From assembly GCF_056712565.1 (NCBI RefSeq), contig NZ_CM160072.1: a stretch of 64,000 nucleotides of DNA; one strand, 5' to 3'. The translations under genes and the position numbers were made by a program. Under the pieces are notes generated by a model. It did not search any database, was not told where the DNA came from, and saw nothing but the letters and a program-made list of their open reading frames with translations. This document shows, piece by piece, positions 15,526 through 49,892 of this stretch. Each line of letters opens with the position of its first letter. The first letter of the stretch is position 1.

Positions 15526-15744
15526 TTACATCCACATAATTTGCTGCCCTGACGGCAACGGGTGCGGTCTTACGGCGTGGACTTCTCCCGGCTTCACGAT
15601 GTATCGCTGTACCGACTCATAAGTGATGAATGTGGCGCTGCAATTCACGTTCTGACACTGGTGATAACGCTCTTTTGTCGTGTCAGTGATATAGCGGCTT
15701 GTACGCGCATGTGCGGCATGCTGGCATAAAGGACAATGAAACAT
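15526..15744 (-). CDS. ogr: Late-gene transcription activator Ogr (zinc finger)
   Basis: 72-aa product MFHCPLCQHAAHARTSRYITDTT... with C-x2-C...C-x4-C; ORF-track start 15807 is upstream of the real ATG. Confidence 0.9.
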   Translation of the reverse strand: MFHCPLCQHAAHARTSRYITDTTKERYHQCQNVNCSATFITYESVQRYIVKPGEVHAVRPHPLPSGQQIMWM

Positions 15745-15825
15745 CGCGAGCACCTCTTCCGGTTTTGTTGATGGTGCTATTTTAGTTAATTTATCCTTAT
15801 AAAACAAATAGATAAAATAAAAACA

Positions 15826-17482: not shown

Positions 17483-19930
17483 TTAACCGTCATGCATCAT
17501 GCTGGCACGGGCGCGCGCACGTTTATCCCGCTCGTATTTTTCGAGCGCATCCTGTAACTGGCGGTCAAGCTGTGTCCCCGGCGCAGTACCACCCGTCAGG
17601 CTGATGTGATATTCGTTTTTACTCTGGTCCACATAAGAGCGGCCAGCCGGTGCCGTGACCGGCTGATAAGCCTGATAGCCTGCATAAGAGCTGGTCGCCG
17701 GAATATAACCACCGGTGCCATACGTGGCGGCATGAGTTCTGGCGGCGGTCTGGTCAAGTGTGTCTGACTCTTTGTTGATAACACCGAGTTTTTCCAGTAC
17801 CCAGTCAATACCGCTGCGCAGTTTGTTGAACGCATTAAGCGGCAGCATCAGCGCGTCAGCCAGTGCCTGCCCGAACATGACGCCCGTGTCACGGCAACGG
17901 TTCAGGGTGTCCCGGGTGGCTTTAACCGGAGCAATCAGGTTTGTAAACCACTGCCACGCGGCCTGTAACTTTTCGCCCAGCCAGTCAAACACCGGCTTAA
18001 GTGGCGTGAACAGCTCCCCCACCGGCGCAAATGCCGCTTTCAGCCCTTCAACCACACCGCCAAAGAATGCGCTGACAGGCTCCCAGTATTTACGGATAAG
18101 CAACGCCCCGGCGACAATGGCAGCCACCACGGCCACAACCGGCCAGCTAATCGCCCCGATGGCCGTCATAACAGCACTGCCAACCGTCGTGAAGATTGCC
18201 CCCATTGCGCCTGCTGCCGCGATAATAGCATTGATGCCGGTGATAACCGGCCAGGCTACGAGGCCAATGGCACCAATGATGCCAGTCAGCGCCAGTGCAC
18301 CACCGGCAATTAGGCCAATGGTTAACGCCAGTGATTTGTTTTTCTGGATCCAGCCGTCGAGTTTTAACACATACTTTGTGGCCGTCTGCGTGAGCTTACG
18401 CAGTGCGCCTTCCTGCTGGTCAAACAGGTCAGTCCCCACCGCCTCATAAGCGGACTGAAACTCCTTAAAGTCACCGCCGAGGTTGTCCTGCATGATATTT
18501 ACCAGTTCTGCGGTCTTTCCGTCTGAGGCTTTAAACGCAGCGGTCAGTTTGTCCAGCTTTCCGGTTGAGGCGGCAGTCATCAGCACGGCGGCGGCTGAAC
18601 TGGCCTCCTCCCCGAAAATGGTTTTCATGTATTCAGCCTGCTGGGCAGTACCGAGCCGGTTTTTCTCAAAACTGGCCTGCATTTCTTTCAGAATGGTAAA
18701 TACTGGTCGGGTGTTTCCCTTACTGTCTGAGGTTTTCACACCAAGCTCTTTGAGTGCATCCCATGCTTTTCCCGTCGGTGCCTGCAGGCGGCTTAACACG
18801 GCACGGCTTCCCGTTCCCGCCATTGAACCGGTAATTTTTGCATCATGCAGCGCCCCGACCATTGCGGCTGTTTCTTCAATGCTGACACCGGCATTTTTTG
18901 CCACAGGTGCGGCATAGGTCAGCGCATCGCTCATACCGTCAAAATCGGCGGCGGTTTTGTTCATCGTCATGGAGAGAACATCCCCGATATGAGCGACCTT
19001 ATCGTTTGAAAGCTGAAAGGCGGATTTCATCCCCATCAGCAGGGCGGCGTTTTCTTCCATCGTGCGGCGGTTCGCCAGCGCCATATTCAGCGTGACCGGC
19101 GTTGCCGCCTGAATGGCATCAACATCCCCACCGGCTTTCGCAATGATAATCTGCGCACCGGCAGCATCATCCGCCGAGGCGGCTGTGTTGTCGCCGAGCT
19201 GGCGCGCCTGTTTGCGTAGCGCGGCCATTTCGGCAGAATCTTTTGCCACACCGAGCACGGCCTGTAATTCTGAGTTTTTCTGCGCAAACTCATAACCGGG
19301 CATCAGCAGCTTAACACCGGCCATCGTTCCCGCCGCCGCAATCCCCACACCGGCAGCGCCCACTGAGGCCATATTTCCGGCCAGTTCCTTTCCGGCCTGA
19401 TAACGCTGTTTGACTGCGTTAAGTTTTGCCTGTTGCGCACTGACACGCGCCAGCGCGTCACGCTGCCGGTTAAGCTGGGCGGTGGTTTCACTGATACGGT
19501 TTTTCAGTCCCTGCTCATCATGTGCAAGATTGCGGGTATTAATTCCCACAGCGGCCAGTTCCCGCTGCTGGCGTTTAACGGAATCTGTCAGGCGGTTATA
19601 TTTCGCCTGTAAGTCCTCCGCCGCACGCTTTGCGGATTCCAGCACTTTCGCCTGAGCACGGGTCGGGCGTTCGGTGTTTTTAAACTGTGTGGCAAGGGCT
19701 TCGGCCTGCTGCCGTGCCTTTTCAAGTGCATGACCAGTCACGGCGAGCTGTGCACTGGTCTTGCGGAATCCCTCAATACGGGATGCGTGACCGTTCAGCT
19801 CGCGCAGTGATTTTTGTGTTTCCCGGATATCCCCCGACAGCAACTTACTCGCTGTGCGGATGGATTTAAACGGGCGGGACGCCTGGTCAACAGCCCTGAG
19901 CAATACCTGTAATTTTACATTGTTACTCAT
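17483..19930 (-). CDS. T: Tail tape-measure protein T
   Basis: 815 aa, Ala/Gly-rich with coiled-coil N-terminus; P2 gpT size. Confidence 0.88.
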   Translation of the reverse strand: MSNNVKLQVLLRAVDQASRPFKSIRTASKLLSGDIRETQKSLRELNGHASRIEGFRKTSAQLAVTGHALEKARQQAEALATQFKNTERPTRAQAKVLESAKRAAEDLQAKYNRLTDSVKRQQRELAAVGINTRNLAHDEQGLKNRISETTAQLNRQRDALARVSAQQAKLNAVKQRYQAGKELAGNMASVGAAGVGIAAAGTMAGVKLLMPGYEFAQKNSELQAVLGVAKDSAEMAALRKQARQLGDNTAASADDAAGAQIIIAKAGGDVDAIQAATPVTLNMALANRRTMEENAALLMGMKSAFQLSNDKVAHIGDVLSMTMNKTAADFDGMSDALTYAAPVAKNAGVSIEETAAMVGALHDAKITGSMAGTGSRAVLSRLQAPTGKAWDALKELGVKTSDSKGNTRPVFTILKEMQASFEKNRLGTAQQAEYMKTIFGEEASSAAAVLMTAASTGKLDKLTAAFKASDGKTAELVNIMQDNLGGDFKEFQSAYEAVGTDLFDQQEGALRKLTQTATKYVLKLDGWIQKNKSLALTIGLIAGGALALTGIIGAIGLVAWPVITGINAIIAAAGAMGAIFTTVGSAVMTAIGAISWPVVAVVAAIVAGALLIRKYWEPVSAFFGGVVEGLKAAFAPVGELFTPLKPVFDWLGEKLQAAWQWFTNLIAPVKATRDTLNRCRDTGVMFGQALADALMLPLNAFNKLRSGIDWVLEKLGVINKESDTLDQTAARTHAATYGTGGYIPATSSYAGYQAYQPVTAPAGRSYVDQSKNEYHISLTGGTAPGTQLDRQLQDALEKYERDKRARARASMMHDG

Positions 19931-20350
19931 TCGTGTTTCCGCTTCGCCTGAGCGCCTTTTCGCGCCATGTGATGAGTTCGGTCAGGCTCATGGGATACAG
20001 TTCTGATGGCGGCCAGTGAAATATCACTGCCACATCCGCCATCAGGTCATCGACCGACAGATTTTTCGGAAGCGTCACTGCACCGAGTTCGGCGACAAAA
20101 AACCGACCACCTTACCGGCCAGCGCCACAAGGTCAGGCAGTTCCAGCGCGGCGACTTCCTGCTCGGTCAGCATCGGTGCCGTCATGCGCGGCAGCACCTT
20201 AATCAGTGCATCGACTTCGGAGTTCGCGACCGCAGCCAGACTGACACCGCGCAGCGTCCCGGCATTAGGTTTCATCAGCGTGACCTGTTCGATAACCTGC
20301 TCACCACGCTTGACCGGATTGTCCAGGGTAATCACATTTTCTTTGTTCAT
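19924..20350 (-). CDS. E': Tail assembly chaperone E+E' (-1 programmed frameshift product)
   Basis: -1 frame after TTTTTTG (20096..20102) stays open to a TAA at 19924..19926 that overlaps the T start codon (ATGAGTAA). Confidence 0.75.
20075..20350 (-). CDS. E: Tail assembly chaperone E
   Basis: 91 aa between T and FII; ends just after the slippery heptamer. Confidence 0.85.
   Translation of the reverse strand: MNKENVITLDNPVKRGEQVIEQVTLMKPNAGTLRGVSLAAVANSEVDALIKVLPRMTAPMLTEQEVAALELPDLVALAGKVVGFLSPNSVQ
20096..20102 (-). other. Slippery heptamer T_TTT_TTG for the E/E' -1 frameshift
   Basis: Complement of caaaaaa at 20096..20102, in frame as G-F-L within the gpE C-terminus. Confidence 0.75.
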
Positions 20351-20406
20351 GGTTTTCTCACTTCTGAATCGGGGTTAACCGGTCAGCCAGGCTGACCGGA
20401 TGAAAA

Positions 20407-20925
20407 TCACAGGCCGATATTGCGGCGGTGTTGCTCCAGCCGGTCGACGCCGTTCACCTTCTCAATCATGTTGATGGTGTCGATTTCGACCAGCTCCTTA
20501 CCGTCCATCGTCAGCCGGAAATAGGTGCAGACCACGGAGATTTTCGACTCGGTGTCTTCTCCCTGTTTGCCCTCGCCGGTGTCGATTTCTTTCTGACGTC
20601 CACGCATGACCACCTCGACGGCCACCGTTTCGCCGGTATCGTCGCGCTGGTAAGAGCCTGCAAAACGAATCGGTACGGAATCCACACCGGTTGCGGCGTA
20701 AAGCTCCCAGATAACCGAATCCGGGAAGCCACCGAGCGACCACTCCATTGACAGCGCATCGTCATCAAGGCCGAGGTCTACCGGTGCGCTGCCGTTCATC
20801 CCCGCACCGCGATAGTTTTCGAGCTTACGGGTCAGTTTTGGTAGCGTGACGGACTTCGCGACGCCCTGATAGCTGTAGCCGTTCAGAAAGACGTTCATTA
20901 ACTTGAGTTTGCGCGGCATTGCCAT
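20407..20925 (-). CDS. FII: Tail tube protein FII
   Basis: 172 aa, P2 gpFII. Confidence 0.88.
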   Translation of the reverse strand: MAMPRKLKLMNVFLNGYSYQGVAKSVTLPKLTRKLENYRGAGMNGSAPVDLGLDDDALSMEWSLGGFPDSVIWELYAATGVDSVPIRFAGSYQRDDTGETVAVEVVMRGRQKEIDTGEGKQGEDTESKISVVCTYFRLTMDGKELVEIDTINMIEKVNGVDRLEQHRRNIGL

Positions 20926-22130
20926 CGGTCAGGCTCCTTATAATTGCTGTTAACCGAGGTGACCAGATTTGCCAGGTATTTATCGGTAATACGCTGGCGC
21001 AGGGTCAGGTTTTCAAGAGGAGGCACCGGTGTATAGTCGTAGTCGATATACAGTTTTCCGGCCTTGAGGGTTTCCGCATCGTTGGATTCTTCGCTGAACC
21101 AGCAGGTCGCATCCACGATATAGCCGTTTGTTTTCAGCTCACGGAATTTGGCATTGATGCCGTCAACGATGTCGCGAATCAGCGTTGCGGTGATGGGCTT
21201 GTCCACCGCCCACATGTGCGCCTCAGCCATCGTGTCAGCCAGTACCTGCGCGGTGCGGGTGTAGTTTTCAAAGAGGAACAGCGGGTCATCAGAGCAGGTA
21301 CGGTTACCCCAGAATCGGAAACCGTCGCGGCGAATCAGCGTAGTGACGCCTGACTCGTTAAGCAGGTCAGCATCGGTGCCGGACTCCTGCAAATCCCAGA
21401 ATACAGATGCGCTGATGCCGGTAACACCGTTTACCCCGACGTTGGACAGCGTTTTATGCCAGCCCTGCTCCTGGTCGATTTTAGCGCGCAGACCCAGCGC
21501 ACGGGCGGTGGCATACGCGGTAGCGGTGGTACTGGTGACCGTATCCCATGCGAGGAAATCCGGCCAGATGACCATCAGCTCACGCTGGCTGAAATTCTGG
21601 CGGTAGGCTTTCACCTCGGAAATGGTCTTACAGCCCCATGCGCTGATATATCCGAAAGCGCGCAGCTTCTGACAGACGGATGCCAGTGCAACAGCCACCT
21701 CTTTGGTATCCAGTCCCGGCACACCGAGAATACGCGGTTTAACACCGGTTACCGACTCCGCCGCCAGCAGGGCTTTTAGTCCGGTGTACTGACCGTTTTC
21801 GTCGGTGGTGCCGATGATATTGGAAACGGTCTGCGCGAGTTTCGTTTCCTCGTCATCACCGGTGCAGTCTTCCACGCGCACGACAACGGTGACCGGTTTT
21901 GACTGGTCAGCGATGGCCTGCAACGATGCCGCCAGCGTGCCTTTTTTACCGGCCTTTGCAATTGCGCTTTGCACATTGGTAATCAGCACCGGTTTATTGA
22001 GGGGGAAGGTTTCCGCATCCGCATCGCTGGCCGTGCAGACCATGCCGACAATGGCAGTGGATACGGTGGAAATGACGCGGGTGCCGTCGTTAATCTCCAG
22101 CACCTGCACGCCATGATGATAGTCACTCAT
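20898..22130 (-). CDS. FI: Contractile tail sheath protein FI
   Basis: 410 aa starting MSDYHHGVQVLEINDGTRV. Confidence 0.88.
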   Translation of the reverse strand: MSDYHHGVQVLEINDGTRVISTVSTAIVGMVCTASDADAETFPLNKPVLITNVQSAIAKAGKKGTLAASLQAIADQSKPVTVVVRVEDCTGDDEETKLAQTVSNIIGTTDENGQYTGLKALLAAESVTGVKPRILGVPGLDTKEVAVALASVCQKLRAFGYISAWGCKTISEVKAYRQNFSQRELMVIWPDFLAWDTVTSTTATAYATARALGLRAKIDQEQGWHKTLSNVGVNGVTGISASVFWDLQESGTDADLLNESGVTTLIRRDGFRFWGNRTCSDDPLFLFENYTRTAQVLADTMAEAHMWAVDKPITATLIRDIVDGINAKFRELKTNGYIVDATCWFSEESNDAETLKAGKLYIDYDYTPVPPLENLTLRQRITDKYLANLVTSVNSNYKEPDRWQCRANSS

Positions 22131-22222
22131 CCGTTTAACTCCGTGGTTAATGGGTACAACTATTTTCTGTTGTGCAGAGCATAAGACGCTATTTGACCTG
22201 GCTGGTCAGTGGATGAAACAAC

Positions 22223-22253
22223 AGATAAAGAAAAGGCGGGCAATTCGCCCGCC
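22223..22253 (-). terminator. Rho-independent terminator between cargo region and the FI operon
   Basis: 7-bp GC stem ggcgggc/gcccgcc with a T-run on the minus strand (complement of agataaagaaaa). Confidence 0.5.
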
Positions 22254-22460
22254 TGTCCTGATTTGTACTCACTCATTTTCCGCCTGACAATTTACATAGC
22301 CCAAATGCTATCAAACCTGACAGTCTGCTTTGAGCGAAAAGTGGACATTAGAGTTACAAAAGCAAGTTTAAATCATCCAAAATATTACAATGTCCTTATC
22401 TATCTGATATCGTTATGATAAAAAGCTCCTGAATATAATCGATAGTAGGTGGTTATTTCC

Positions 22461-22838
22461 ATGAAATCAATTTTAGAGGTCTTTACTCAAGGAAATACTA
22501 AAGAAAAACTGGCTGTTATCGCCGATCTCACAACCATTGCGGGAATATCGATTGCAACTATTATTGCTGGTTTGTTAACCCTAGTTGCAAAAACAGATAA
22601 ACTAGATGTTGGAAATCTGTTTGGAGTTGTCATAATATCTCTGCTCGGATTGGCTGGTGTTTGCTGTTTTGTGGCCTTATTTATTTGGGTTATAACCCAA
22701 ATGTCTAAACCATGGGGAACACCTCGGGGGGTTCAGCCCTTAGTTAAGTGTGCTATTTCCCTTATCTTTATCTGTATGTTTTTGCTGGCTGTCTTTACAT
22801 TTTATGAGTTTATTTCTTCGATGAGCATACGCTATTGA
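22461..22838 (+). CDS. Small hydrophobic membrane protein (3 predicted TM helices), prophage cargo
   Basis: ORF 22449..22838; likely start ATG 22461 (MKSILEVF) with AGGTGG RBS; AT-rich. Confidence 0.6.
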   Translation: MKSILEVFTQGNTKEKLAVIADLTTIAGISIATIIAGLLTLVAKTDKLDVGNLFGVVIISLLGLAGVCCFVALFIWVITQMSKPWGTPRGVQPLVKCAISLIFICMFLLAVFTFYEFISSMSIRY

Positions 22839-22860
22839 ATATAAAATCAGCCCCCATAAC

Positions 22861-23445
22861 TTAAAAGAGACCTTCTATATCGACTTCAATGCCCAAATAA
22901 CGGACTGTGCTTTCCAGTTTCTTATGGCCCAACAGAAGTTGGATCACCCGGAGACTCTTGGTTTTCTTGTAGATTAAGTAAGGTTTTGTTCTTCTCATGG
23001 AATGTGTGCTGTACAGCGAATCTTCGAGACCAAGCTTTTCTACCCACCCATGAAAAATTCGGTTGTATTGCCGGGTTGATATATGGTGGTTAGTTCCGAC
23101 CCGAGAGCGGAACAGGAAGCCTTTACTATGCCAGTTGCCGAGCTTTATCAATGCAGTAACCGCTTCCCTTGTCCCTTTGGTTATCTCAAATTGGACAGGG
23201 CTGCCGGTTTTCTGTTGCAACACCGTTGCTCTGCTTGAGACAGAACTGCCATATGCAGCATCTGATACTTTGAGTTTGACCAAATCACAGCCCCGTAGCT
23301 TAGTGTCCAAAGCCATGTTGAACAGAGCTAGATCGCGTGTTTTACCTTCCAACTCAAGTCTAATCCGGATCCCCCAGATATGAAATATCTGAAGTGGCCT
23401 TTTTTGACCGATGGTACGGTCTTTATTCCACGGTGACGTTTTCAT
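22861..23445 (-). CDS. Small tyrosine recombinase (phage-integrase family, FimB/FimE-sized)
   Basis: C-terminal catalytic signature HSMRRT...LLGHKKLESTVRYL (R, H-x-x-R, Y); likely start ATG 23445 with AGGAGA RBS giving 194 aa. Confidence 0.7.
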   Translation of the reverse strand: MKTSPWNKDRTIGQKRPLQIFHIWGIRIRLELEGKTRDLALFNMALDTKLRGCDLVKLKVSDAAYGSSVSSRATVLQQKTGSPVQFEITKGTREAVTALIKLGNWHSKGFLFRSRVGTNHHISTRQYNRIFHGWVEKLGLEDSLYSTHSMRRTKPYLIYKKTKSLRVIQLLLGHKKLESTVRYLGIEVDIEGLF

Positions 23446-24275
23446 ATTCAAATCTCCTGCAATGTGGGAGATTTGAGTATGGTTGTCTCTCAAGAGCGAA
23501 AATAAGTCAACTATCACTAGTTGTTGCGCATGTACGTATTCTGTCAATTAATTATTGACAATCATCAATTCTGGAATGATCAAAATCATCATATCGAATT
23601 ATAGTCTGGTTGACTGTATCTATTGTTGGTGTCATTTCTGTTATAATATCCTGATAACCTAAAGAGTTAAATACATTTACTAAGGCCTCACACCGAAGGG
23701 CCGTAGCAATTACAAAATTATAAATTGCCAGCCGTTTATTTTCTTGTTTAACTGCAAGAATGAATTCGATAGCAGTATTTTCATCACTTTGGATTGCATT
23801 ATATAGAGATACTATATTTACCATATCATCAGAGAATGTATGTATTGAATCACAAAGGGGAACGTAATGGGCATGATAGTGTGTTTCCCAGCCAATTAAT
23901 TCAAAAAGTCTTCTGGTTCCTGGATATTCAGGTGTATTTGGCCACAATCTATTAAATAGATCAGTTAGTTCTTTTCCCATGCGAATCCTTTCATTTGCTG
24001 CTGGATTAGTCATTCCTTTGGATTTTAAACACTCCAGCCACCGTTTTCCATTACTATGAACTAATTTCTTACTAGCCTTGAGTAATGCTTGTGCATTTTC
24101 GCCATCATCTATTGCTATATAAAATTGATTGGCAGCCTGTTCTATTATAACCCTAGCTAATACTTCCGATGCTGAAAAGGCTCCTATATTCAAAGAAGAG
24201 ATAGCCTGATTACTAAGTTCATTCAGTACATTAAAGTACTGTAAGACCATCAATTTTTGTTCCACACCCTTTAGG

Positions 24276-24280
24276 TTGTC
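24276..24280. repeat. IS2 target-site duplication, TTGTC (copy 1)
   Basis: 5 bp immediately flanking the IS2 terminus, identical to 25612..25616. Confidence 0.85.
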
Positions 24281-24291
24281 TGGATTTGCCC

Positions 24292-25197
24292 CTATATTTC
24301 CAGACACCTGTTATCACTTAACCCATTACTGGCTTGCTGCCGTAGATATTCCCGTGGCGAGCGATAACCCAGTGCACTATGCGGATGCCATTCGTTATAA
24401 TGCTCGAACGCCTCTGCAAGGTTCTTTGCTGCCGTTAACCCGTCTGGTTTGGGCATGACACTGATGTAGTCACGCTTTATCGTTTTCACGAAGCTCTCTG
24501 CTATGCCGTTACTCTCCGGACTCCGCACCGCCGTGCTCTTCGGTTCAAGCCCCAACATCCGGGCAAACTGCCGTGTTTCATTAGCCCGGTAGCATGAACC
24601 ATTATCCGTCAGCCACTCTACTGGAGACGCCGGAAGCTCGTTGCCGAAGCGGCGTTCCACCGCTCCCAGCATGACGTCCTGTACTGTTTCACTGTTGAAG
24701 CCGCCCGTAGTGACCGCCCAGTGCAGTGCCTCACGGTCACAGCAGTCCAGCGCGAACGTGACTCGCAGTTTTTCTCCGTTATCACAGCGGAACTCGAACC
24801 CGTCAGAGCACCATCGCTGATTACTTTCTTTCACAGCCACTCTGCCTGTATGTGCCCGTTTCGATGGCGGTACAGCAGGTTTTCGCTCAAGCAACAGCGC
24901 ATTCTGGCGCATGATCCGGTAAACACGTTTGGCATTGATCGCAGGCATACCATCAAGTTCTGCCTGTCTGCGAAGCAGCGCCCATACCCGACGATAACCA
25001 TACGTGGGCAGCTCTCCGATAACATGGTGTATACGGAGAAGCACATCCGTATCATCAGTGTGACGACTGCGGCGGCCATCCATCCAGTCATCGGTTCGTC
25101 TGAGAATGACGTGCAACTGCGCACGCGACACCCGGAGACAACGGCTGACTAAGCTTACTCCCCATCCCCGGGCAATAAGGGCGCGTGCGCTATCCAC
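24292..25197 (-). CDS. insD: IS2 transposase InsD (orfB, DDE domain)
   Basis: 301-aa ORF inside IS2. Confidence 0.9.
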
Positions 25198-25520
25198 TTT
25201 TTTGCCCGTCCATATTCAACGGCTTCTTTGAGGAGTTCATTTTCCATCGTTTTCTTGCCGAGCAGGCGCTGGAGTTCTTTAATCTGCTTCATGGCGGCAG
25301 CAAGTTCAGAGGCAGGAACAACCTGTTCTCCGGCGGCGACAGCAGTAAGACTTCCTTCCTGGTATTGCTTACGCCAGAGAAATAACTGGCTGGCTGCTAC
25401 ACCATGTTGCCGGGCAACGAGGGAGACCGTCATCCCTGGTTCAAAGCTCTGCTGAACAATTGCGATCTTTTCCTGTGTGGTACGCCGTCTGCGTTTCTCC
25501 GGTCCTAAGACATCAATCAT
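25155..25520 (-). CDS. insC: IS2 InsC (orfA, HTH)
   Basis: 121-aa product [41 protein letters not shown]...; overlaps insD in -1 frame. Confidence 0.9.
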
Positions 25521-25611
25521 CTGCTCTCCAATGACTAGTCTAAAAACTAGTATTAAGACTATCACTTAAATAAGTGATATTGGTTGTCTGGAGATTCAGG
25601 GGGCCAGTCTA

Positions 25612-25616
25612 TTGTC
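25612..25616. repeat. IS2 target-site duplication, TTGTC (copy 2)
   Basis: 5 bp immediately flanking the other IS2 terminus. Confidence 0.85.
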
Positions 25617-25768
25617 TATTTTATTTTTATGCTCCTCAAATTTTGCATGGATATATTTATTTATCGCGGCTATTTTTTTTACATCTTCGTCAAGATCAAA
25701 CGGGCAACGTCCAAACAATTCTTTTTTCATATATTTCTCCTGTTGTACAAGCTTCCATAAGTTGGCAG

Positions 25769-25794
25769 ATTATACACTGAAGATTACCTATAAA
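25769..25794 (-). promoter_or_regulatory. Candidate sigma70 promoter for the IS2-disrupted cargo gene
   Basis: Minus-strand TATAAT (25769..25774) with TTTATA upstream (25789..25794); spacing about 14 bp, so tentative. Confidence 0.35.
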
Positions 25795-26151
25795 TAGCTG
25801 TGCGGGATAGCAGATCAGTGCAAGAAGTACAACCAAGTGAACTGTGCGTATTCAGATACCTGGCCTAACGTTCGCGATAGCCGTCCCCTGCACGAAGCCA
25901 TATATTAGATGTATTAGCTCAGACCTTATCTGACAGGTTGAGTAGGTAGAATCTAATCAAAGCTGACAGTCTGGTTTGGACTGTGAGTTCAACCGATGGA
26001 TGCAACACACAGCGATCTACGGACATTACTAGCATAGCTGTGTATTAATCATCGGGAAGCAGGTCAGTCCGCTCCTAGCACAGAGCAGACTGTCAGATTA
26101 GGCTTTACTCTGTGCTATAGATACGTTAGCTCACTCCAGAGATCATACAAC

Positions 26152-41588: not shown

Positions 41589-43805
41589 ATGGAACTTAGA
41601 TTAAAAAATGTTACCAGTTATAAGAAAGACGCCTTCACAATACTGAATCTTGAAAAAAGAGTAAACATACTATACGGCCAAAATGGTTGTGGCAAATCTA
41701 CCATTTCAAATTATTTCTACGACTCTACACACACAGATTATAACGAGTGTGAATGTACCCTTCTTGACAATTACAAACCTCTTGTTTACAACACTAAATT
41801 TATTGAAGATAACTTCTATAATGCACAGGAACAAAAAGGTGTTTTTACATTAAGTAAAGAAAATGCAGATATTGAAAAACAATTAATTGAAAAAGAAGCA
41901 ATTAAACAGCAACTCACAGAGCAATATAGACAAAAAAAAGGAGTGTTATTGAAATTAGAAGCAGAAATGGAAAAAAAAGAAAATGAATACATCGAATCGA
42001 TCTGGAAAAAAACAGAACCAATCAGAAACTCTGTACTAAAAACCTTAATGAAAGGTAAAGTTGGCTATAAAAGACCTTTTTTTGAGATGATAAAATCATC
42101 CTCACCAATCACCTTTATTAATTTAAATGATATAGCAAAAGAATACTCTATACTATTAGAAAATAGAAACAATGAAACCGCATTAATAACTCCTTTACAT
42201 CCATATACCCCATCAATTGATGATGTAAATACATTAGCAACACCTATAATAGATACAAGCAATAGCTATTTATCAGAAACCATTAATAAACTTCATAATC
42301 TTGACTGGGTAAAAAAAGGTAAAGAACATTATTTAGACGGTTCTACATGTCCGTTTTGTCAGGAAAAAACTATTAGTCACGAATTTTTAAATGCCCTTAA
42401 ATCAATATTTGACGAAAGTTATTCAAAGAAAGTAAAACAGCTCTCAGATATAAAGTCAGTTTATGAGAAAAATACCATATATCATTTTAACGAAATACAA
42501 AACAATATATCATCATGTGCACTAATCAATGAGAAAGATAAAGAGAACATTATTTCCAATATTAAAATATTGCAAAACATTGCAGAAAAAAATTTAATAA
42601 ACATTATTGATAAGATCAACAATCCATCAACATGCGTTACATTAGAAATTGATAAAGAACTAGAAAATCATGTTCAGGAAAGCATAGGCGCTGTTAACAA
42701 GAAAATAAGAGACATAAATGATAAGGTTAAAAAACTCAAAGAGTATGAGAATAAAATCGGAAAACAAGTTTGGGGGGCTCTCCATGCTTTTTGCAGCGAT
42801 GATTTAGAGAATTTATCCAAACACAAAGAAAAATTCTTTGATATCAAAAAGAAAGTTCATGATGAATTAAATAATATTGAGCAACAAGGAAAAGAAAATA
42901 ATCTCACAATAAAAGCATTGCGAGATAAAATATCTAACATTGATTCTACGATAGACTCAATAAACACCCATTTAAAAAATCTAGGGATCTCTGGTTTTTG
43001 TATTGAAAAACATGCAGAAAGAAAAGATATGTACATTATATCTCGACCAGGGCATACAAAAAACCAAAATGTTTATAGATCTCTTAGCGAAGGTGAAAAA
43101 ACACTAATAACGTTTCTTTATTTTTTAGAGTGCTGTAAAGGTAAAACCGATAAAAATGATACCGATAGCAGGGATATTTTTATTGTTATTGACGATCCAA
43201 TATCTAGTCTATCGCAAAACTATGTCTACGACATCGCATCAATTATTCATCACCACATTATAAAAAATGAATTAACAAAGAAGGTATTAATCCTTACTCA
43301 CAATCTTTATTTCTTTCATGAACTTATTAAGCTATCTCCTAAAAGCAGAGAAGACAAACTATTTAAGAAAAACTATTATCTAGGTAGAGTAACGAAAAAT
43401 GATTTTAGTATAATTACTGAAATACAAAAAAACAGCATACAGAATGAATATCAATCTTTGTGGCAAATATTAAAAGATGCAAAAGATGGCAAAGCAAACA
43501 AAATCATAATACCGAATATTATGAGAAACATACTAGAATATTATTTTGCATTTGTTCATAGAACAGATGCTCTACAAGATGAATTAACAAAGTTGGCACG
43601 CGACGATAGCAACAGTGATTTCAAAGCATTCTACAGATACATTAACAGAGGTTCTCACTCTGATGCGGTAAATATTACTGATATGGGCGACATAGACCCA
43701 GATAAATACCTAAAACAATTGAGAACAATATTTTCAGCTACTGGTGACGAAATGCATTATTTAAAAATGATGGACGAACTAGAAGAGGAAAACGTTACCG
43801 CTTAG
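41589..43805 (+). CDS. SMC/ABC-type P-loop ATPase with CxxC and C-terminal R-x3-E...H tail; RloC/PrrC-like anticodon-nuclease candidate (prophage cargo, tin/old position)
   Basis: Walker A GQNGCGKST near N-terminus; CPFC about aa 253; Walker B IFIVIDDP and LILTHN H-loop about aa 525-560; C-terminal RNILE...H; strongly AT-rich. Confidence 0.7.
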   Translation: MELRLKNVTSYKKDAFTILNLEKRVNILYGQNGCGKSTISNYFYDSTHTDYNECECTLLDNYKPLVYNTKFIEDNFYNAQEQKGVFTLSKENADIEKQLIEKEAIKQQLTEQYRQKKGVLLKLEAEMEKKENEYIESIWKKTEPIRNSVLKTLMKGKVGYKRPFFEMIKSSSPITFINLNDIAKEYSILLENRNNETALITPLHPYTPSIDDVNTLATPIIDTSNSYLSETINKLHNLDWVKKGKEHYLDGSTCPFCQEKTISHEFLNALKSIFDESYSKKVKQLSDIKSVYEKNTIYHFNEIQNNISSCALINEKDKENIISNIKILQNIAEKNLINIIDKINNPSTCVTLEIDKELENHVQESIGAVNKKIRDINDKVKKLKEYENKIGKQVWGALHAFCSDDLENLSKHKEKFFDIKKKVHDELNNIEQQGKENNLTIKALRDKISNIDSTIDSINTHLKNLGISGFCIEKHAERKDMYIISRPGHTKNQNVYRSLSEGEKTLITFLYFLECCKGKTDKNDTDSRDIFIVIDDPISSLSQNYVYDIASIIHHHIIKNELTKKVLILTHNLYFFHELIKLSPKSREDKLFKKNYYLGRVTKNDFSIITEIQKNSIQNEYQSLWQILKDAKDGKANKIIIPNIMRNILEYYFAFVHRTDALQDELTKLARDDSNSDFKAFYRYINRGSHSDAVNITDMGDIDPDKYLKQLRTIFSATGDEMHYLKMMDELEEENVTA

Positions 43806-48878: not shown

Positions 48879-49892
48879 ATGGCAATCAAAAAACTCGATG
48901 ATGGTCGATATGAAGTGGACATCCGCCCTACTGGACGTAACGGAAAACGCATCCGTAGGAAGTTTGATAAGAAAAGCGAAGCTGTCGCTTTCGAAAAATA
49001 CACGTTGTACAACCACCACAATAAAGAATGGCTATCAAAACCAACAGACAAACGACGTCTGTCGGAACTGACACAGATCTGGTGGGATTTAAAGGGTAAA
49101 CACGAAGAGCATGGGAAATCTAATCTTGGAAAAATTGAAATCTTCACAAAAATAACGAATGACCCATGCGCATTTCAAATCACGAAATCCCTTATCAGCC
49201 AGTACTGCGCCACCCGAAGAAGCCAGGGTATTAAACCTTCGAGTATCAATCGTGATTTAACATGTATTAGCGGCATGTTTACAGCCCTGATTGAAGCGGA
49301 GTTATTCTTTGGTGAGCACCCTATCAGAGGGACAAAGAGGCTTAAGGAGGAAAAACCAGAAACAGGCTATCTCACACAGGAAGAAATTGCCTTACTGCTT
49401 GCAGCACTTGACGGCGACAATAAAAAGATTGCGATTCTTTGCCTGAGTACAGGAGCACGTTGGGGAGAAGCAGCTCGTTTGAAAGCAGAAAATATCATCC
49501 ATAACCGCGTCACGTTTGTTAAAACGAAAACAAACAAACCACGCACCGTCCCGATTTCAGAGGCTGTTGCCAAAATGATCGCGGATAACAAACGAGGTTT
49601 TTTATTCCCTGATGCTGATTACCCTCGCTTCAGACGAACAATGAAAGCAATAAAACCGGATTTGCCAATGGGGCAAGCCACACATGCACTAAGGCACAGC
49701 TTTGCCACTCATTTCATGATTAATGGAGGAAGTATTATCACGCTACAACGGATACTAGGTCACACGCGGATTGAGCAAACTATGGTTTACGCTCATTTTG
49801 CGCCAGAGTACCTTCAGGACGCCATTTCTCTTAATCCGCTAAGAGGTGGTACTGAGGCCGAGAGTGTCCACACAGTGTCCACAGTAGAGTAA
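48879..49892 (+). CDS. int: Integrase (tyrosine recombinase)
   Basis: 337 aa; catalytic R...HALRHSFATHF...GH...YAH; adjacent to att core. Confidence 0.9.
   Translation: MAIKKLDDGRYEVDIRPTGRNGKRIRRKFDKKSEAVAFEKYTLYNHHNKEWLSKPTDKRRLSELTQIWWDLKGKHEEHGKSNLGKIEIFTKITNDPCAFQITKSLISQYCATRRSQGIKPSSINRDLTCISGMFTALIEAELFFGEHPIRGTKRLKEEKPETGYLTQEEIALLLAALDGDNKKIAILCLSTGARWGEAARLKAENIIHNRVTFVKTKTNKPRTVPISEAVAKMIADNKRGFLFPDADYPRFRRTMKAIKPDLPMGQATHALRHSFATHFMINGGSIITLQRILGHTRIEQTMVYAHFAPEYLQDAISLNPLRGGTEAESVHTVSTVE

What the first reader, a model, noticed from the sequence alone, without database searches (positions are those of the whole stretch)
20096..20102. Conserved -1 programmed frameshift site in the tail chaperone genes E/E'
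The slippery heptamer T_TTT_TTG lies near the 3' end of gpE, and the -1 frame continues to a stop that overlaps the tape-measure start (ATGAGTAA). This is the expected tail-assembly chaperone arrangement and indicates the tail module is probably functional.
Basis: partly seen in the sequence, partly recalled or inferred. Interest (0 to 1): 0.25.

Follow-up and report, generated by a model that had tools for sequence, protein, structure and literature searches.

The report
Known P2 tail-chaperone frameshift site
This is the well-known programmed -1 ribosomal frameshift site of phage P2's tail-assembly chaperone genes E/E', sitting in a P2-type prophage of an E. coli chromosome; it is real, strongly conserved and entirely ordinary.

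Summary
Confirmed, and already known. The genes are on the minus strand: plus-strand 20096-20102 is CAAAAAA, so the coding strand reads T_TTT_TTG, phased GG-T TTT TTG, six codons before the stop of gene E (20350..20075). The -1 frame then runs 57 sense codons to a TAA (19925..19923) inside ATGAGTAA, which holds the tape-measure (T) start (19930).

The 446-nt region is 99% identical to phage P2, whose reference record annotates this position as the E+E' -1 frameshift. The predicted 142-aa fusion carries Phage_TAC_7 plus Phage_P2_GpE domains and differs from curated P2 E+E' at 2 residues.

A phased heptamer alone is not significant (about 0.5% of codon positions here). The weight comes from conservation:
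- 16/16 divergent phages, 80/80 close loci and 80/80 diverse viral loci keep a phased slippery heptamer followed by a 54-74-codon -1 frame.
- Almost none keeps a start codon for E'.
- No downstream RNA structure was found.

TTTTTTG is a weak motif in published E. coli reporter assays. An SD-like tract lies just upstream, but it is mostly explained by the encoded amino acids.

Caveat on "tail module functional": all F-operon ORFs are intact, but a rare 2-bp insertion removes the sheath (FI) stop codon and adds 14 residues.

The parts
20075..20350 (-). Gene E (tail assembly chaperone, 91 aa), the zero-frame product
   Evidence: ORF. It is 90/91 identical to P2 gpE. Pfam Phage_TAC_7 matches residues 7-85, E=2.6e-12. 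The exact protein occurs on 1000 or more contigs, named 'phage tail assembly protein'.
20096..20102 (-). Slippery heptamer T_TTT_TTG (plus strand CAAAAAA), phased GG-T TTT TTG at codons 83-85 of E
   Evidence: Identical in P2, where the record marks the 'site of -1 translational frameshift'. Conserved in 80/80 close loci, 80/80 diverse loci and 16/16 panel phages, with some variant heptamers.
19923..20096 (-). E' segment read in the -1 frame after the slip: 57 codons plus TAA. The frame is open from 20111.
   Evidence: Pfam Phage_P2_GpE matches fusion residues 104-139, E=1.2e-21. PHROG 1756/6416 'tail protein'.
19923..20350 (-). E+E' fusion coding region (142 aa, made by the -1 shift)
   Evidence: The fusion built differs at 2 of 142 residues from curated P2 NP_046780.1 / UniProt O64312, whose exact ...GFLVAEL... 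junction was confirmed. The window's own fusion is not in the 15-billion-protein collection.
19923..19930 (-). ATGAGTAA: tape-measure (T) start codon overlapping the E' stop codon
   Evidence: P2 has the same 8-nt overlap: E+E' ends at 19857 and T starts at 19850.
17483..19930 (-). Gene T, tail tape measure protein (815 aa), the presumed client of E and E+E'
   Evidence: Pfam PhageMin_Tail, E=1.8e-45. 802/815 identical to P2 gpT.
20407..20925 (-). Gene FII, tail tube protein (172 aa), immediately upstream of E
   Evidence: Pfam Phage_tube, E=3.8e-60. 171/172 identical to P2.
20898..22130 (-). Gene FI, tail sheath (410 aa). The stop codon is lost through a 2-bp insertion at about 20939-20942, adding 14 C-terminal residues that run over the FII start.
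20105..20112 (-). AGGTGGTC, complementary to the 16S rRNA 3' tail, ending 2 nt 5' of the heptamer. It is a candidate modulator, not an established one.
   Evidence: Best anti-SD duplex -12.2 kcal/mol, background quantile 0.5%. In 72 diverse junctions the signal is mostly explained by the encoded amino acids.
20076..20078 (-). GTG that PGAP uses as the start of a separate 51-aa 'GpE family phage tail protein'. This is probably an annotation artefact.
   Evidence: A start codon in this region is present in only 6 of 85 related junctions.

Best explanation
This is the programmed -1 ribosomal frameshift site of the phage P2 tail-assembly chaperone pair E / E+E', in a full-length P2-type (Peduovirus) prophage of an E. 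coli chromosome. Most ribosomes translating E read GGT TTT TTG TCG ... to the TGA and release the 91-aa gpE. A minority slip back one nucleotide while tRNA-Phe (P site, UUU) and tRNA-Leu (A site, UUG) occupy T_TTT_TTG. These tRNAs re-pair on UUU UUU. The next codon read is then GTC, and translation continues for 57 codons in the -1 frame to a TAA that overlaps the tape-measure start. The product is the 142-aa gpE+E' (...VVGFL-VAELGAVTLPK...). By analogy with lambda G/GT, the shared E part is expected to coat the tape-measure protein, and the rarer E' extension to recruit tail-tube subunits. Fixing the ratio of the two proteins at the translational level would then control tail assembly. Shown here: the sequence anatomy, near-identity to the annotated P2 site, domain content of both frames, and deep conservation of the signal. 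Inferred: that the shift occurs in this prophage, its frequency, and the chaperone roles of the two proteins.
For: (1) Heptamer, phase, open -1 frame and E'/T overlap were read directly from the sequence.
(2) The 446-nt E/E' region is 99% identical to P2 with identical heptamer and spacing. The P2 record annotates E+E' as a joined CDS ('-1 frameshift; essential tail protein') and marks the frameshift site.
(3) The fusion carries Phage_TAC_7 in the E frame and Phage_P2_GpE in the -1 frame and matches tail PHROGs. The same construction rule applied to P2 reproduces NP_046780.1/O64312 exactly.
(4) Gene order is sheath, tube, E/E', tape measure, U, D.
(5) Conservation: tblastn finds both halves in two frames in 405 of 418 phage records, down to about 29% identity. 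All 16 divergent panel phages have E' in the -1 frame with a phased heptamer: mostly TTTTTTG, also TTTTTTT, TTTTTTC, AAATTTT and GGGAAAG. 80/80 close loci keep TTTTTTG. 80/80 diverse loci (72 unique junctions, median GC 64%) keep T_TTT_TTN followed by 54-74 -1-frame codons. The codon supplying the first T is any of 10 codons, all ending in T.
(6) Only 6 of 85 junctions have any ATG/GTG/TTG in the first 14 E' codons, while a Glu three codons after the slip is 87% conserved.
(7) Literature: in P2 the -1 shift at TTTTTTG gives the 91-aa E and 142-aa E+E' (PMC3091744). [quoted passage not shown] For lambda G/GT, the ratio is about 30:1 and the chaperone roles are described (PMC5009743).
Against: There is no direct evidence of expression from this prophage. 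U_UUU_UUG is a weak motif in E. coli reporters: 0.118% without a stimulator and 0.77% with the IS3 pseudoknot (Sharma et al. 2014, Table S3). No significant downstream RNA structure exists (z = -0.87 and -1.14). So either a very low E+E':E ratio suffices or an unidentified context element helps. The primary experimental paper (Christie et al. 2002, PMC135442) could not be read, so its content is cited second-hand.
Confidence: 0.93

Rival explanations
1. E' is a separate small gene translated independently from the GTG at 20078 (51 aa), as PGAP annotates it. No frameshift is needed.
For: RefSeq annotates a 51-aa 'GpE family phage tail protein' starting at this GTG in an identical prophage. That exact 51-aa sequence is on about 1000 contigs.
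Against: A start codon in this region is present in only 6 of 85 related junctions. The -1-frame residues upstream of the P2 GTG are conserved (Glu 87%). According to Lee et al. 2014, citing Christie 2002, E' lacks a ribosome-binding site. The curated P2 record and UniProt O64312 give the fusion. The phased heptamer is kept in 176 of 176 loci examined.
Confidence: 0.03
2. The frame change is made at the RNA level. RNA polymerase slips on the T6 run and inserts an extra U, giving an mRNA in which E and E' are in frame (product ...GFFVAEL...).
For: A homopolymeric T6 run is present, and T7 in 7 of 85 relatives. One E. coli record (QTN08932.1) encodes exactly the ...GFF... in-frame version, showing the run can gain a T at the DNA or sequencing level.
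Against: From my own knowledge of Baranov et al. 2005, six residues is shorter than the runs generally needed for efficient bacterial transcriptional slippage. The run's phase is strictly kept as X_XXY_YYZ in all loci, which matters only to ribosomes. Family members with AAATTTT or GGGAAAG have no long homopolymer yet keep the two-frame arrangement.
Confidence: 0.04
3. The shift is ribosomal but involves the P site only. tRNA-Phe slips from UUU to the overlapping UUU while the A site waits for the less common UUG-reading tRNA-Leu. UUU is then decoded, giving ...GFFVAEL... rather than the tandem-slip product ...GFLVAEL...
For: UUG in the A site re-pairs poorly on UUU. This fits the low efficiency of U_UUU_UUG compared with U_UUU_UUY in reporters. 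The 3' base varies among G, A and C (71/5/4) while T6 is invariant.
Against: The curated P2 protein is written with Leu at the junction. Whether that residue was determined experimentally could not be checked, because the primary paper is not held. The strong preference for G at position 7 (71 of 80) is unexplained if the A-site codon were irrelevant.
Confidence: 0.1
4. The heptamer is a chance or relic sequence in a decaying prophage and has no current function.
For: Phased heptamers are common: 95 in the window's ORFs. The same operon carries a stop-loss mutation in FI and there is an IS2 insertion nearby.
Against: E, E', T, FII, U and D are all intact and 97-99% identical to P2. The site is identical to that of viable phages. 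The conservation is far beyond chance.
Confidence: 0.02

Closest known systems
Phage P2 genes E and E+E' (Christie et al. 2002; NC_001895 P2p25/P2p26; UniProt O64312)
   Same: Same genes, same T_TTT_TTG heptamer and phase, same 37-nt frame overlap, same 142-aa and 91-aa products, and same 8-nt E'/T overlap. Identity is 99% at the nucleotide level and 140/142 for the fusion.
   Different: There are two amino-acid substitutions. The copy is in a resident prophage of an extraintestinal E. coli lineage, not in the free phage. The neighbouring FI gene carries a stop-loss insertion that P2 lacks.
Phage lambda G / GT tail assembly chaperones (Levin et al. 1993; Xu, Hendrix & Duda 2004, 2013, 2014)
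   Same: Two overlapping ORFs between the major tail and tape-measure genes. [quoted passage not shown] A low-abundance fusion whose ratio to the short product matters. Neither protein is in the virion.
   Different: There is no detectable sequence similarity. Lambda uses a different heptamer (G_GGA_AAG, from my own knowledge) and builds a non-contractile tail, whereas P2 builds a contractile tail with a sheath.
Phage 186 orf51/orf52, Fels-2 STM2699/2697.1, and Burkholderia KS5/KL3/KS14 E and E+E'
   Same: Homologous proteins at 42-73% identity, with TTTTTTG at the equivalent position and the same -1 arrangement.
   Different: The E tail after the heptamer varies in length. The E'/T junction varies from overlaps to short gaps.
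E. coli dnaX and IS3-family (including IS2) -1 frameshift signals
   Same: Tandem-slippage heptamer of X_XXY_YYZ type. An IS2 copy with A_AAA_AAG lies in the same window.
   Different: From my own knowledge of Larsen et al. 1994, those sites use the highly efficient A_AAA_AAG plus defined stimulators, an upstream SD about 10 nt away and/or a downstream hairpin or pseudoknot. The E site uses a weak heptamer with no significant downstream structure. Its SD-like tract lies only about 2 nt upstream.

Membership tests
P2-type tail assembly chaperone pair gpE / gpE+E' | First ORF encodes a gpE-type chaperone domain (Pfam Phage_TAC_7) | tested here: met
   Residues 7-85, E=2.6e-12, 47 bits against a cut-off of 25. 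90/91 identical to P2 gpE.
P2-type tail assembly chaperone pair gpE / gpE+E' | Second ORF, in the -1 frame, encodes the GpE (E') domain (Pfam Phage_P2_GpE) | tested here: met
   Fusion residues 104-139, E=1.2e-21, 76 bits against a cut-off of 23.
P2-type tail assembly chaperone pair gpE / gpE+E' | Phased X_XXY_YYZ slippery heptamer inside the region where both frames are open, near the 3' end of E | tested here: met
   T_TTT_TTG at 20102..20096, inside the 37-nt window 20111..20075 and six codons before the E stop. Identical to the annotated P2 site.
P2-type tail assembly chaperone pair gpE / gpE+E' | Located between the tail tube gene and the tape-measure gene | tested here: met
   FII (Phage_tube) is upstream and T (PhageMin_Tail) is downstream.
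P2-type tail assembly chaperone pair gpE / gpE+E' | E' has no conserved independent translation start | tested here: met
   Only 6 of 85 related junctions have any ATG/GTG/TTG in the first 14 E' codons. The window does have a GTG at 20078, but it is specific to the P2 clade. The literature states E' has no RBS.
P2-type tail assembly chaperone pair gpE / gpE+E' | The fusion protein is actually produced, and both E and E+E' are required for tail assembly | not testable with these tools
   Known only from the P2 record's notes ('-1 frameshift; essential tail protein') and from secondary citations of Christie et al. 2002.
Conserved tail-assembly-chaperone frameshift of tailed phages (Xu, Hendrix & Duda 2004; lambda G/GT type) | Two overlapping ORFs directly upstream of the tape-measure gene, joined by a programmed frameshift that yields a short major product and a long minor product with a shared N-terminus | tested here: met
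   The anatomy is met. The product ratio was not measured.
Conserved tail-assembly-chaperone frameshift of tailed phages (Xu, Hendrix & Duda 2004; lambda G/GT type) | Frameshift signal conserved among relatives despite protein divergence | tested here: met
   16/16 divergent phages and 160/160 viral loci keep it.
dnaX / IS3-type stimulated -1 frameshift signals | Downstream stimulatory hairpin or pseudoknot | tested here: not met
   Fold z-scores are -0.87 (80 nt) and -1.14 (171 nt). Rfam has no match. The literature reports none.
dnaX / IS3-type stimulated -1 frameshift signals | Upstream Shine-Dalgarno-like stimulator at a defined spacing (about 10 nt in dnaX) | tested here: inconclusive
   Strong anti-SD complementarity lies 0-12 nt upstream in many lineages. 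The mean is -9.7 kcal/mol, against -3.8 elsewhere in the E genes and -7.1 in synonymous shuffles. 16 of 72 reach p<=0.05. Spacing is variable and mostly shorter than in dnaX.

The most novel reading that the evidence does not exclude
The family deliberately keeps a weak heptamer: T_TTT_TTG gives about 0.1-0.8% frameshifting in E. coli reporters. The actual E+E':E ratio would then be set by a second, so far undescribed context element. The candidate is the G-rich tract complementary to the 16S rRNA 3' tail that lies 0-12 nt upstream of the slip site in most lineages (AGGTGGTC, 2 nt upstream, in this window). It could act as a stimulator or as a brake. A conserved GCCGAA just downstream might contribute as well.
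Probability: 0.12. Interest if true: 0.35.

Novelty: already known. Interest (0 to 1): 0.08.

Why it matters
The finding has little importance as a discovery, because the P2 E/E' frameshift has been a textbook recoding site since 2002. It has practical value in two ways.

First, automated annotation (PGAP) still splits E' off as a fictitious 51-aa GTG-started gene. The true 142-aa product of this prophage is absent from a 15-billion-protein collection, so proteomics searches and pangenome analyses will miss it.

Second, the frameshift site's integrity should not be read as proof of a working tail. The adjacent sheath gene carries a rare stop-loss mutation that could affect particle production in this E. 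coli lineage.

Tried and rejected
(1) Downstream stimulatory RNA structure. Folding 80 nt and 171 nt gave z = -0.87 and -1.14. A small hairpin (CGCCG-AACU-CGGUG) starts 1 nt after the heptamer, but it is broken by substitutions in close relatives and absent in distant ones. Rejected.

(2) Rfam scan of 19000-26000. The only result was a sub-threshold chance hit (IRES_n-myc, 15.6 bits against a cut-off of 40).

(3) Codon-position periodicity of conservation downstream of the heptamer, to decide which frame is under selection. This was uninformative, because GC-rich genomes have biased third positions. Amino-acid conservation and start-codon absence were used instead.

(4) The 'overlap' lengths printed are unreliable. 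A BLAST HSP ran across a -1-frame stop, and for the window the script gave 58 nt where the true value is 37 nt. The values were recomputed, and the numbers are not used.

(5) The search for related loci with the 14-sequence alignment failed because it was too diverse. A 5-sequence subset worked.

(6) The primary paper, Christie et al. 2002 (PMC135442), is not held. Its content is cited through PMC3091744 and PMC3931495.

(7) Upstream SD-like element as a proven stimulator. This is not supported as a clear nucleotide-level signal. Most of the complementarity follows from the encoded Gly / Glu-Val residues.

(8) The P_F promoter region upstream of FI aligns to P2 at 86% identity. I could not evaluate the activator site, so I draw no conclusion from it.

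Full report
**1. What is in the sequence**

The tail genes in this part of the window are on the minus strand. Plus-strand 20096-20102 reads CAAAAAA, so the coding strand reads TTTTTTG.

Gene E runs 20350..20075 (91 aa). The first T of the heptamer (20102) is a third codon position, which gives GG-T TTT TTG, the canonical X_XXY_YYZ phasing. These are codons 83-85, six codons before the TGA.

In the -1 frame a TAA at 20114..20112 closes the frame just upstream. From 20111 the frame is open through the heptamer and for 57 further sense codons, ending at TAA 19925..19923. The tape-measure ATG is 19930..19928, so ATGAGTAA contains both signals. The region where both frames are open is 37 nt. That is exactly the figure Lee et al. 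2014 give for P2 (PMC3931495).

**2. Is it more than chance?**

The heptamer alone is not. In 63 non-overlapping long ORFs of the window there are 95 phased XXXYYYZ heptamers in 19,217 codon positions (0.49%). The chance of one falling in a 12-codon window is about 6%. The significance comes from context and conservation.

**3. Identity**

- The 601-nt region matches 74 phage genomes at 95-99% identity, all Peduovirus (P2-type).
- Against the P2 reference, the 446 nt from the E ribosome-binding site to the T start are 99% identical, with the heptamer, spacing and overlap unchanged.
- NC_001895 annotates E (19430..19705) and E+E' as a joined CDS ('shares amino terminus with gpE; -1 frameshift; essential tail protein'). 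It also carries a misc_feature 'site of -1 translational frameshift', and T starts 8 nt before the E+E' end.
- The fusion I built (zero frame through TTG, then GTC...) is 142 aa. It carries Pfam Phage_TAC_7 (residues 7-85) and Phage_P2_GpE (residues 104-139), both above the curated cut-offs, and matches tail PHROGs.
- The same rule applied to the P2 sequence reproduces NP_046780.1 / UniProt O64312 ('Tail assembly protein E'') exactly. The window's fusion differs from it at two residues.
- The neighbours are sheath FI, tube FII, tape measure T, U and D, 97-99% identical to P2.
- The window is an E. coli chromosome, 100% identical over 7.3 kb to strain SF-468 and APEC O1:K1:H7 strains. The prophage lies next to yegQ.

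**4. Conservation**

- tblastn of the fusion against 50,697 phage records found 418 records. In 405 of them most of the protein was covered as two pieces in two frames, from 98% down to about 29% identity, across phages of Escherichia, Klebsiella, Burkholderia, Ralstonia, Vibrio, Mannheimia, Shewanella and Aeromonas.
- I fetched 16 divergent representatives. In all 16, E' is in the -1 frame and a phased slippery heptamer lies at the homologous position. TTTTTTG occurs in 11, TTTTTTC in 2, and TTTTTTT, AAATTTT and GGGAAAG in one each.
- Eighty close IMG/VR loci all have TTTTTTG.
- Eighty diverse IMG/VR loci (52-68% identical to a Shewanella-phage E, 72 unique junctions, median GC 64%) all have T_TTT_TTN: G in 71, A in 5, C in 4. 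Each is followed by 54-74 open -1 codons.
- The codon that supplies the first T is one of ten different codons, always ending in T. The T-run is exactly 6 nt in 78 of 85 unique junctions. This is nucleotide-level constraint on top of protein conservation.

**5. Mechanism and rivals**

The best-supported mechanism is tandem -1 slippage of tRNA-Phe (P site) and tRNA-Leu (A site) on U_UUU_UUG. It gives ...GFL-VAEL..., as written in the curated P2 protein.

- *Independent initiation.* PGAP annotates a 51-aa ORF starting at GTG 20078. This is contradicted by the family data. Only 6 of 85 junctions have any start codon in the first 14 E' codons, yet a Glu three codons after the slip site, upstream of the P2 GTG, is 87% conserved. 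P2 E' is also reported to lack an RBS.
- *Transcriptional slippage on T6.* This is unlikely because the phase is strictly kept. Members with AAATTTT or GGGAAAG have no long homopolymer.
- *P-site-only slip.* This would give ...GFF... and cannot be excluded from sequence. The junction residue would settle it.

No downstream structure is present (z = -0.87 and -1.14; Rfam negative). Lynch et al. 2010 report the same (PMC3091744).

Function is inferred by analogy with lambda G/GT. There the short product coats the tape measure and the roughly 30-fold rarer fusion recruits the tube protein (PMC5009743).

**6. A point of mild interest**

In the systematic E. coli reporter study of Sharma et al. 2014 (Table S3), U_UUU_UUG is a weak motif:

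| Motif | No stimulator | IS911 stimulator | IS3 pseudoknot |
|---|---|---|---|
| U_UUU_UUG | 0.118% | 0.247% | 0.765% |
| U_UUU_UUC | 0.121% | 0.893% | 7.6% |
| U_UUU_UUU | 0.326% | 0.446% | 10.2% |

Yet G is the preferred seventh base in the family (71 of 80). Either a very low E+E' level is optimal, or the native context contributes.

I noticed a tract complementary to the 16S rRNA 3' tail just upstream. In the window it is AGGTGGTC, with a duplex energy of -12.2 kcal/mol, ending 2 nt before the heptamer. Across 72 diverse junctions the upstream complementarity averages -9.7 kcal/mol, against -3.8 elsewhere in the same genes. Synonymous-codon shuffles still give -7.1. Only 16 of 72 junctions are individually unusual (p<=0.05), the spacing varies from 0 to 12 nt, and the sequences are related to one another. 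I regard this as mostly a consequence of the encoded Gly / Glu-Val residues and leave it as an untested possibility.

**7. 'Tail module probably functional'**

All F-operon ORFs are intact. By my recollection of the P2 gene sizes, the other tail genes (R, S, V, W, J, I, G) have P2-like lengths in the ORF list.

FI is the exception. It has a 2-bp insertion exactly at its stop codon (AAT TAA GGAG becomes AAT TAT AAG GAG). This extends the sheath protein by 14 residues (YKEPDRWQCRANSS) across the FII start. None of 74 phage genomes has the insertion. Only about 15 of 1,554 E. coli records match at >=99% over this junction.

**8. Verdict**

The feature is the already-known P2 E/E+E' programmed frameshift, so novelty is nil and interest is low.

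Noticed in passing
window 20898-20945 (-), insertion at about 20939-20942: The tail sheath gene FI has lost its stop codon through a 2-bp insertion (AAT TAA GGAG to AAT TAT AAG GAG). The protein is 410 aa instead of 396, with a 14-residue C-terminal extension overlapping the FII start. The variant is absent from all 74 matching phage genomes and present in only about 15 of 1,554 matching E. coli records, so it is a rare variant of one lineage with possible consequences for tail assembly.
   Followed up: partly
window about 24281-25611 (-); heptamer 25203..25197: An IS2 copy is inserted in the cargo region between tail-fibre assembly gene G and FI. It matches NCBIfam 'IS2 repressor TnpA' and 'IS2 transposase TnpB'. 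It has its own phased A_AAA_AAG heptamer 13 codons before the orfA stop, with a 301-codon -1 frame behind it. This is a second, unrelated and well-known -1 frameshift site in the same window. The element boundaries are estimated from memory of the IS2 terminus and length.
   Followed up: partly
window 19923-20078 (-) and L002 3223-3378: RefSeq/PGAP annotates E' as a free-standing 51-aa GTG-started 'GpE family phage tail protein'. That sequence and the 91-aa E each occur on about 1000 or more contigs. The real 142-aa fusion of this prophage is absent from a 15-billion-protein collection. This is a systematic annotation gap for this recoding event.
   Followed up: yes
window 41589-43805 (+): A 738-aa AAA_13 ATPase lies between portal gene Q and replication gene A, which from memory is the P2 'old/tin' cargo position. 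It matches the PADLOC candidate defence family PDC-S06 (E=1e-254) with weak PrrC-like similarity at its C-terminus. It is probably an anti-phage cargo gene.
   Followed up: partly
window 22150-24307: The rest of the cargo between G and FI, which from memory is the P2 Z/fun position, comprises three ORFs. One is a 129-aa predicted membrane ORF (22449..22838, +) with no family match. One is a tyrosine-recombinase fragment (22861..23547, -, Phage_integrase domain only). One is a DUF5677 protein (23552..24307, -) whose 5' end abuts the IS2 copy. None matches PADLOC.
   Followed up: partly
window 20105-20112 (-) and loci L083-L178: A tract complementary to the 16S rRNA 3' tail (AGGTGGTC here; AGGTGAT in 186 and Yersinia phages; GGAGGTGGT in an Aeromonas phage) lies 0-12 nt upstream of the slip site in many lineages. 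It is enriched relative to the rest of the E gene but largely explained by the encoded amino acids. A GCCGAA motif just downstream of the heptamer is also fairly conserved.
   Followed up: partly
protein P0032 (QTN08932.1), found: One E. coli genome encodes a 142-aa in-frame E-E' protein with ...GFFVAEL... at the junction, as expected from a T7 run in place of T6. This is either a natural +1-nt mutant that makes only the fusion or a homopolymer sequencing error.
   Followed up: no
window about 15450-50000: The whole P2-type prophage (int at 48879..49892, ogr at about 15526..15807, about 34.5 kb) lies beside yegQ. From memory, E. coli K-12 keeps only a P2 remnant (ogrK) at this locus. RefSeq names the prophage's ogr copy 'OgrK'.
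   Followed up: no
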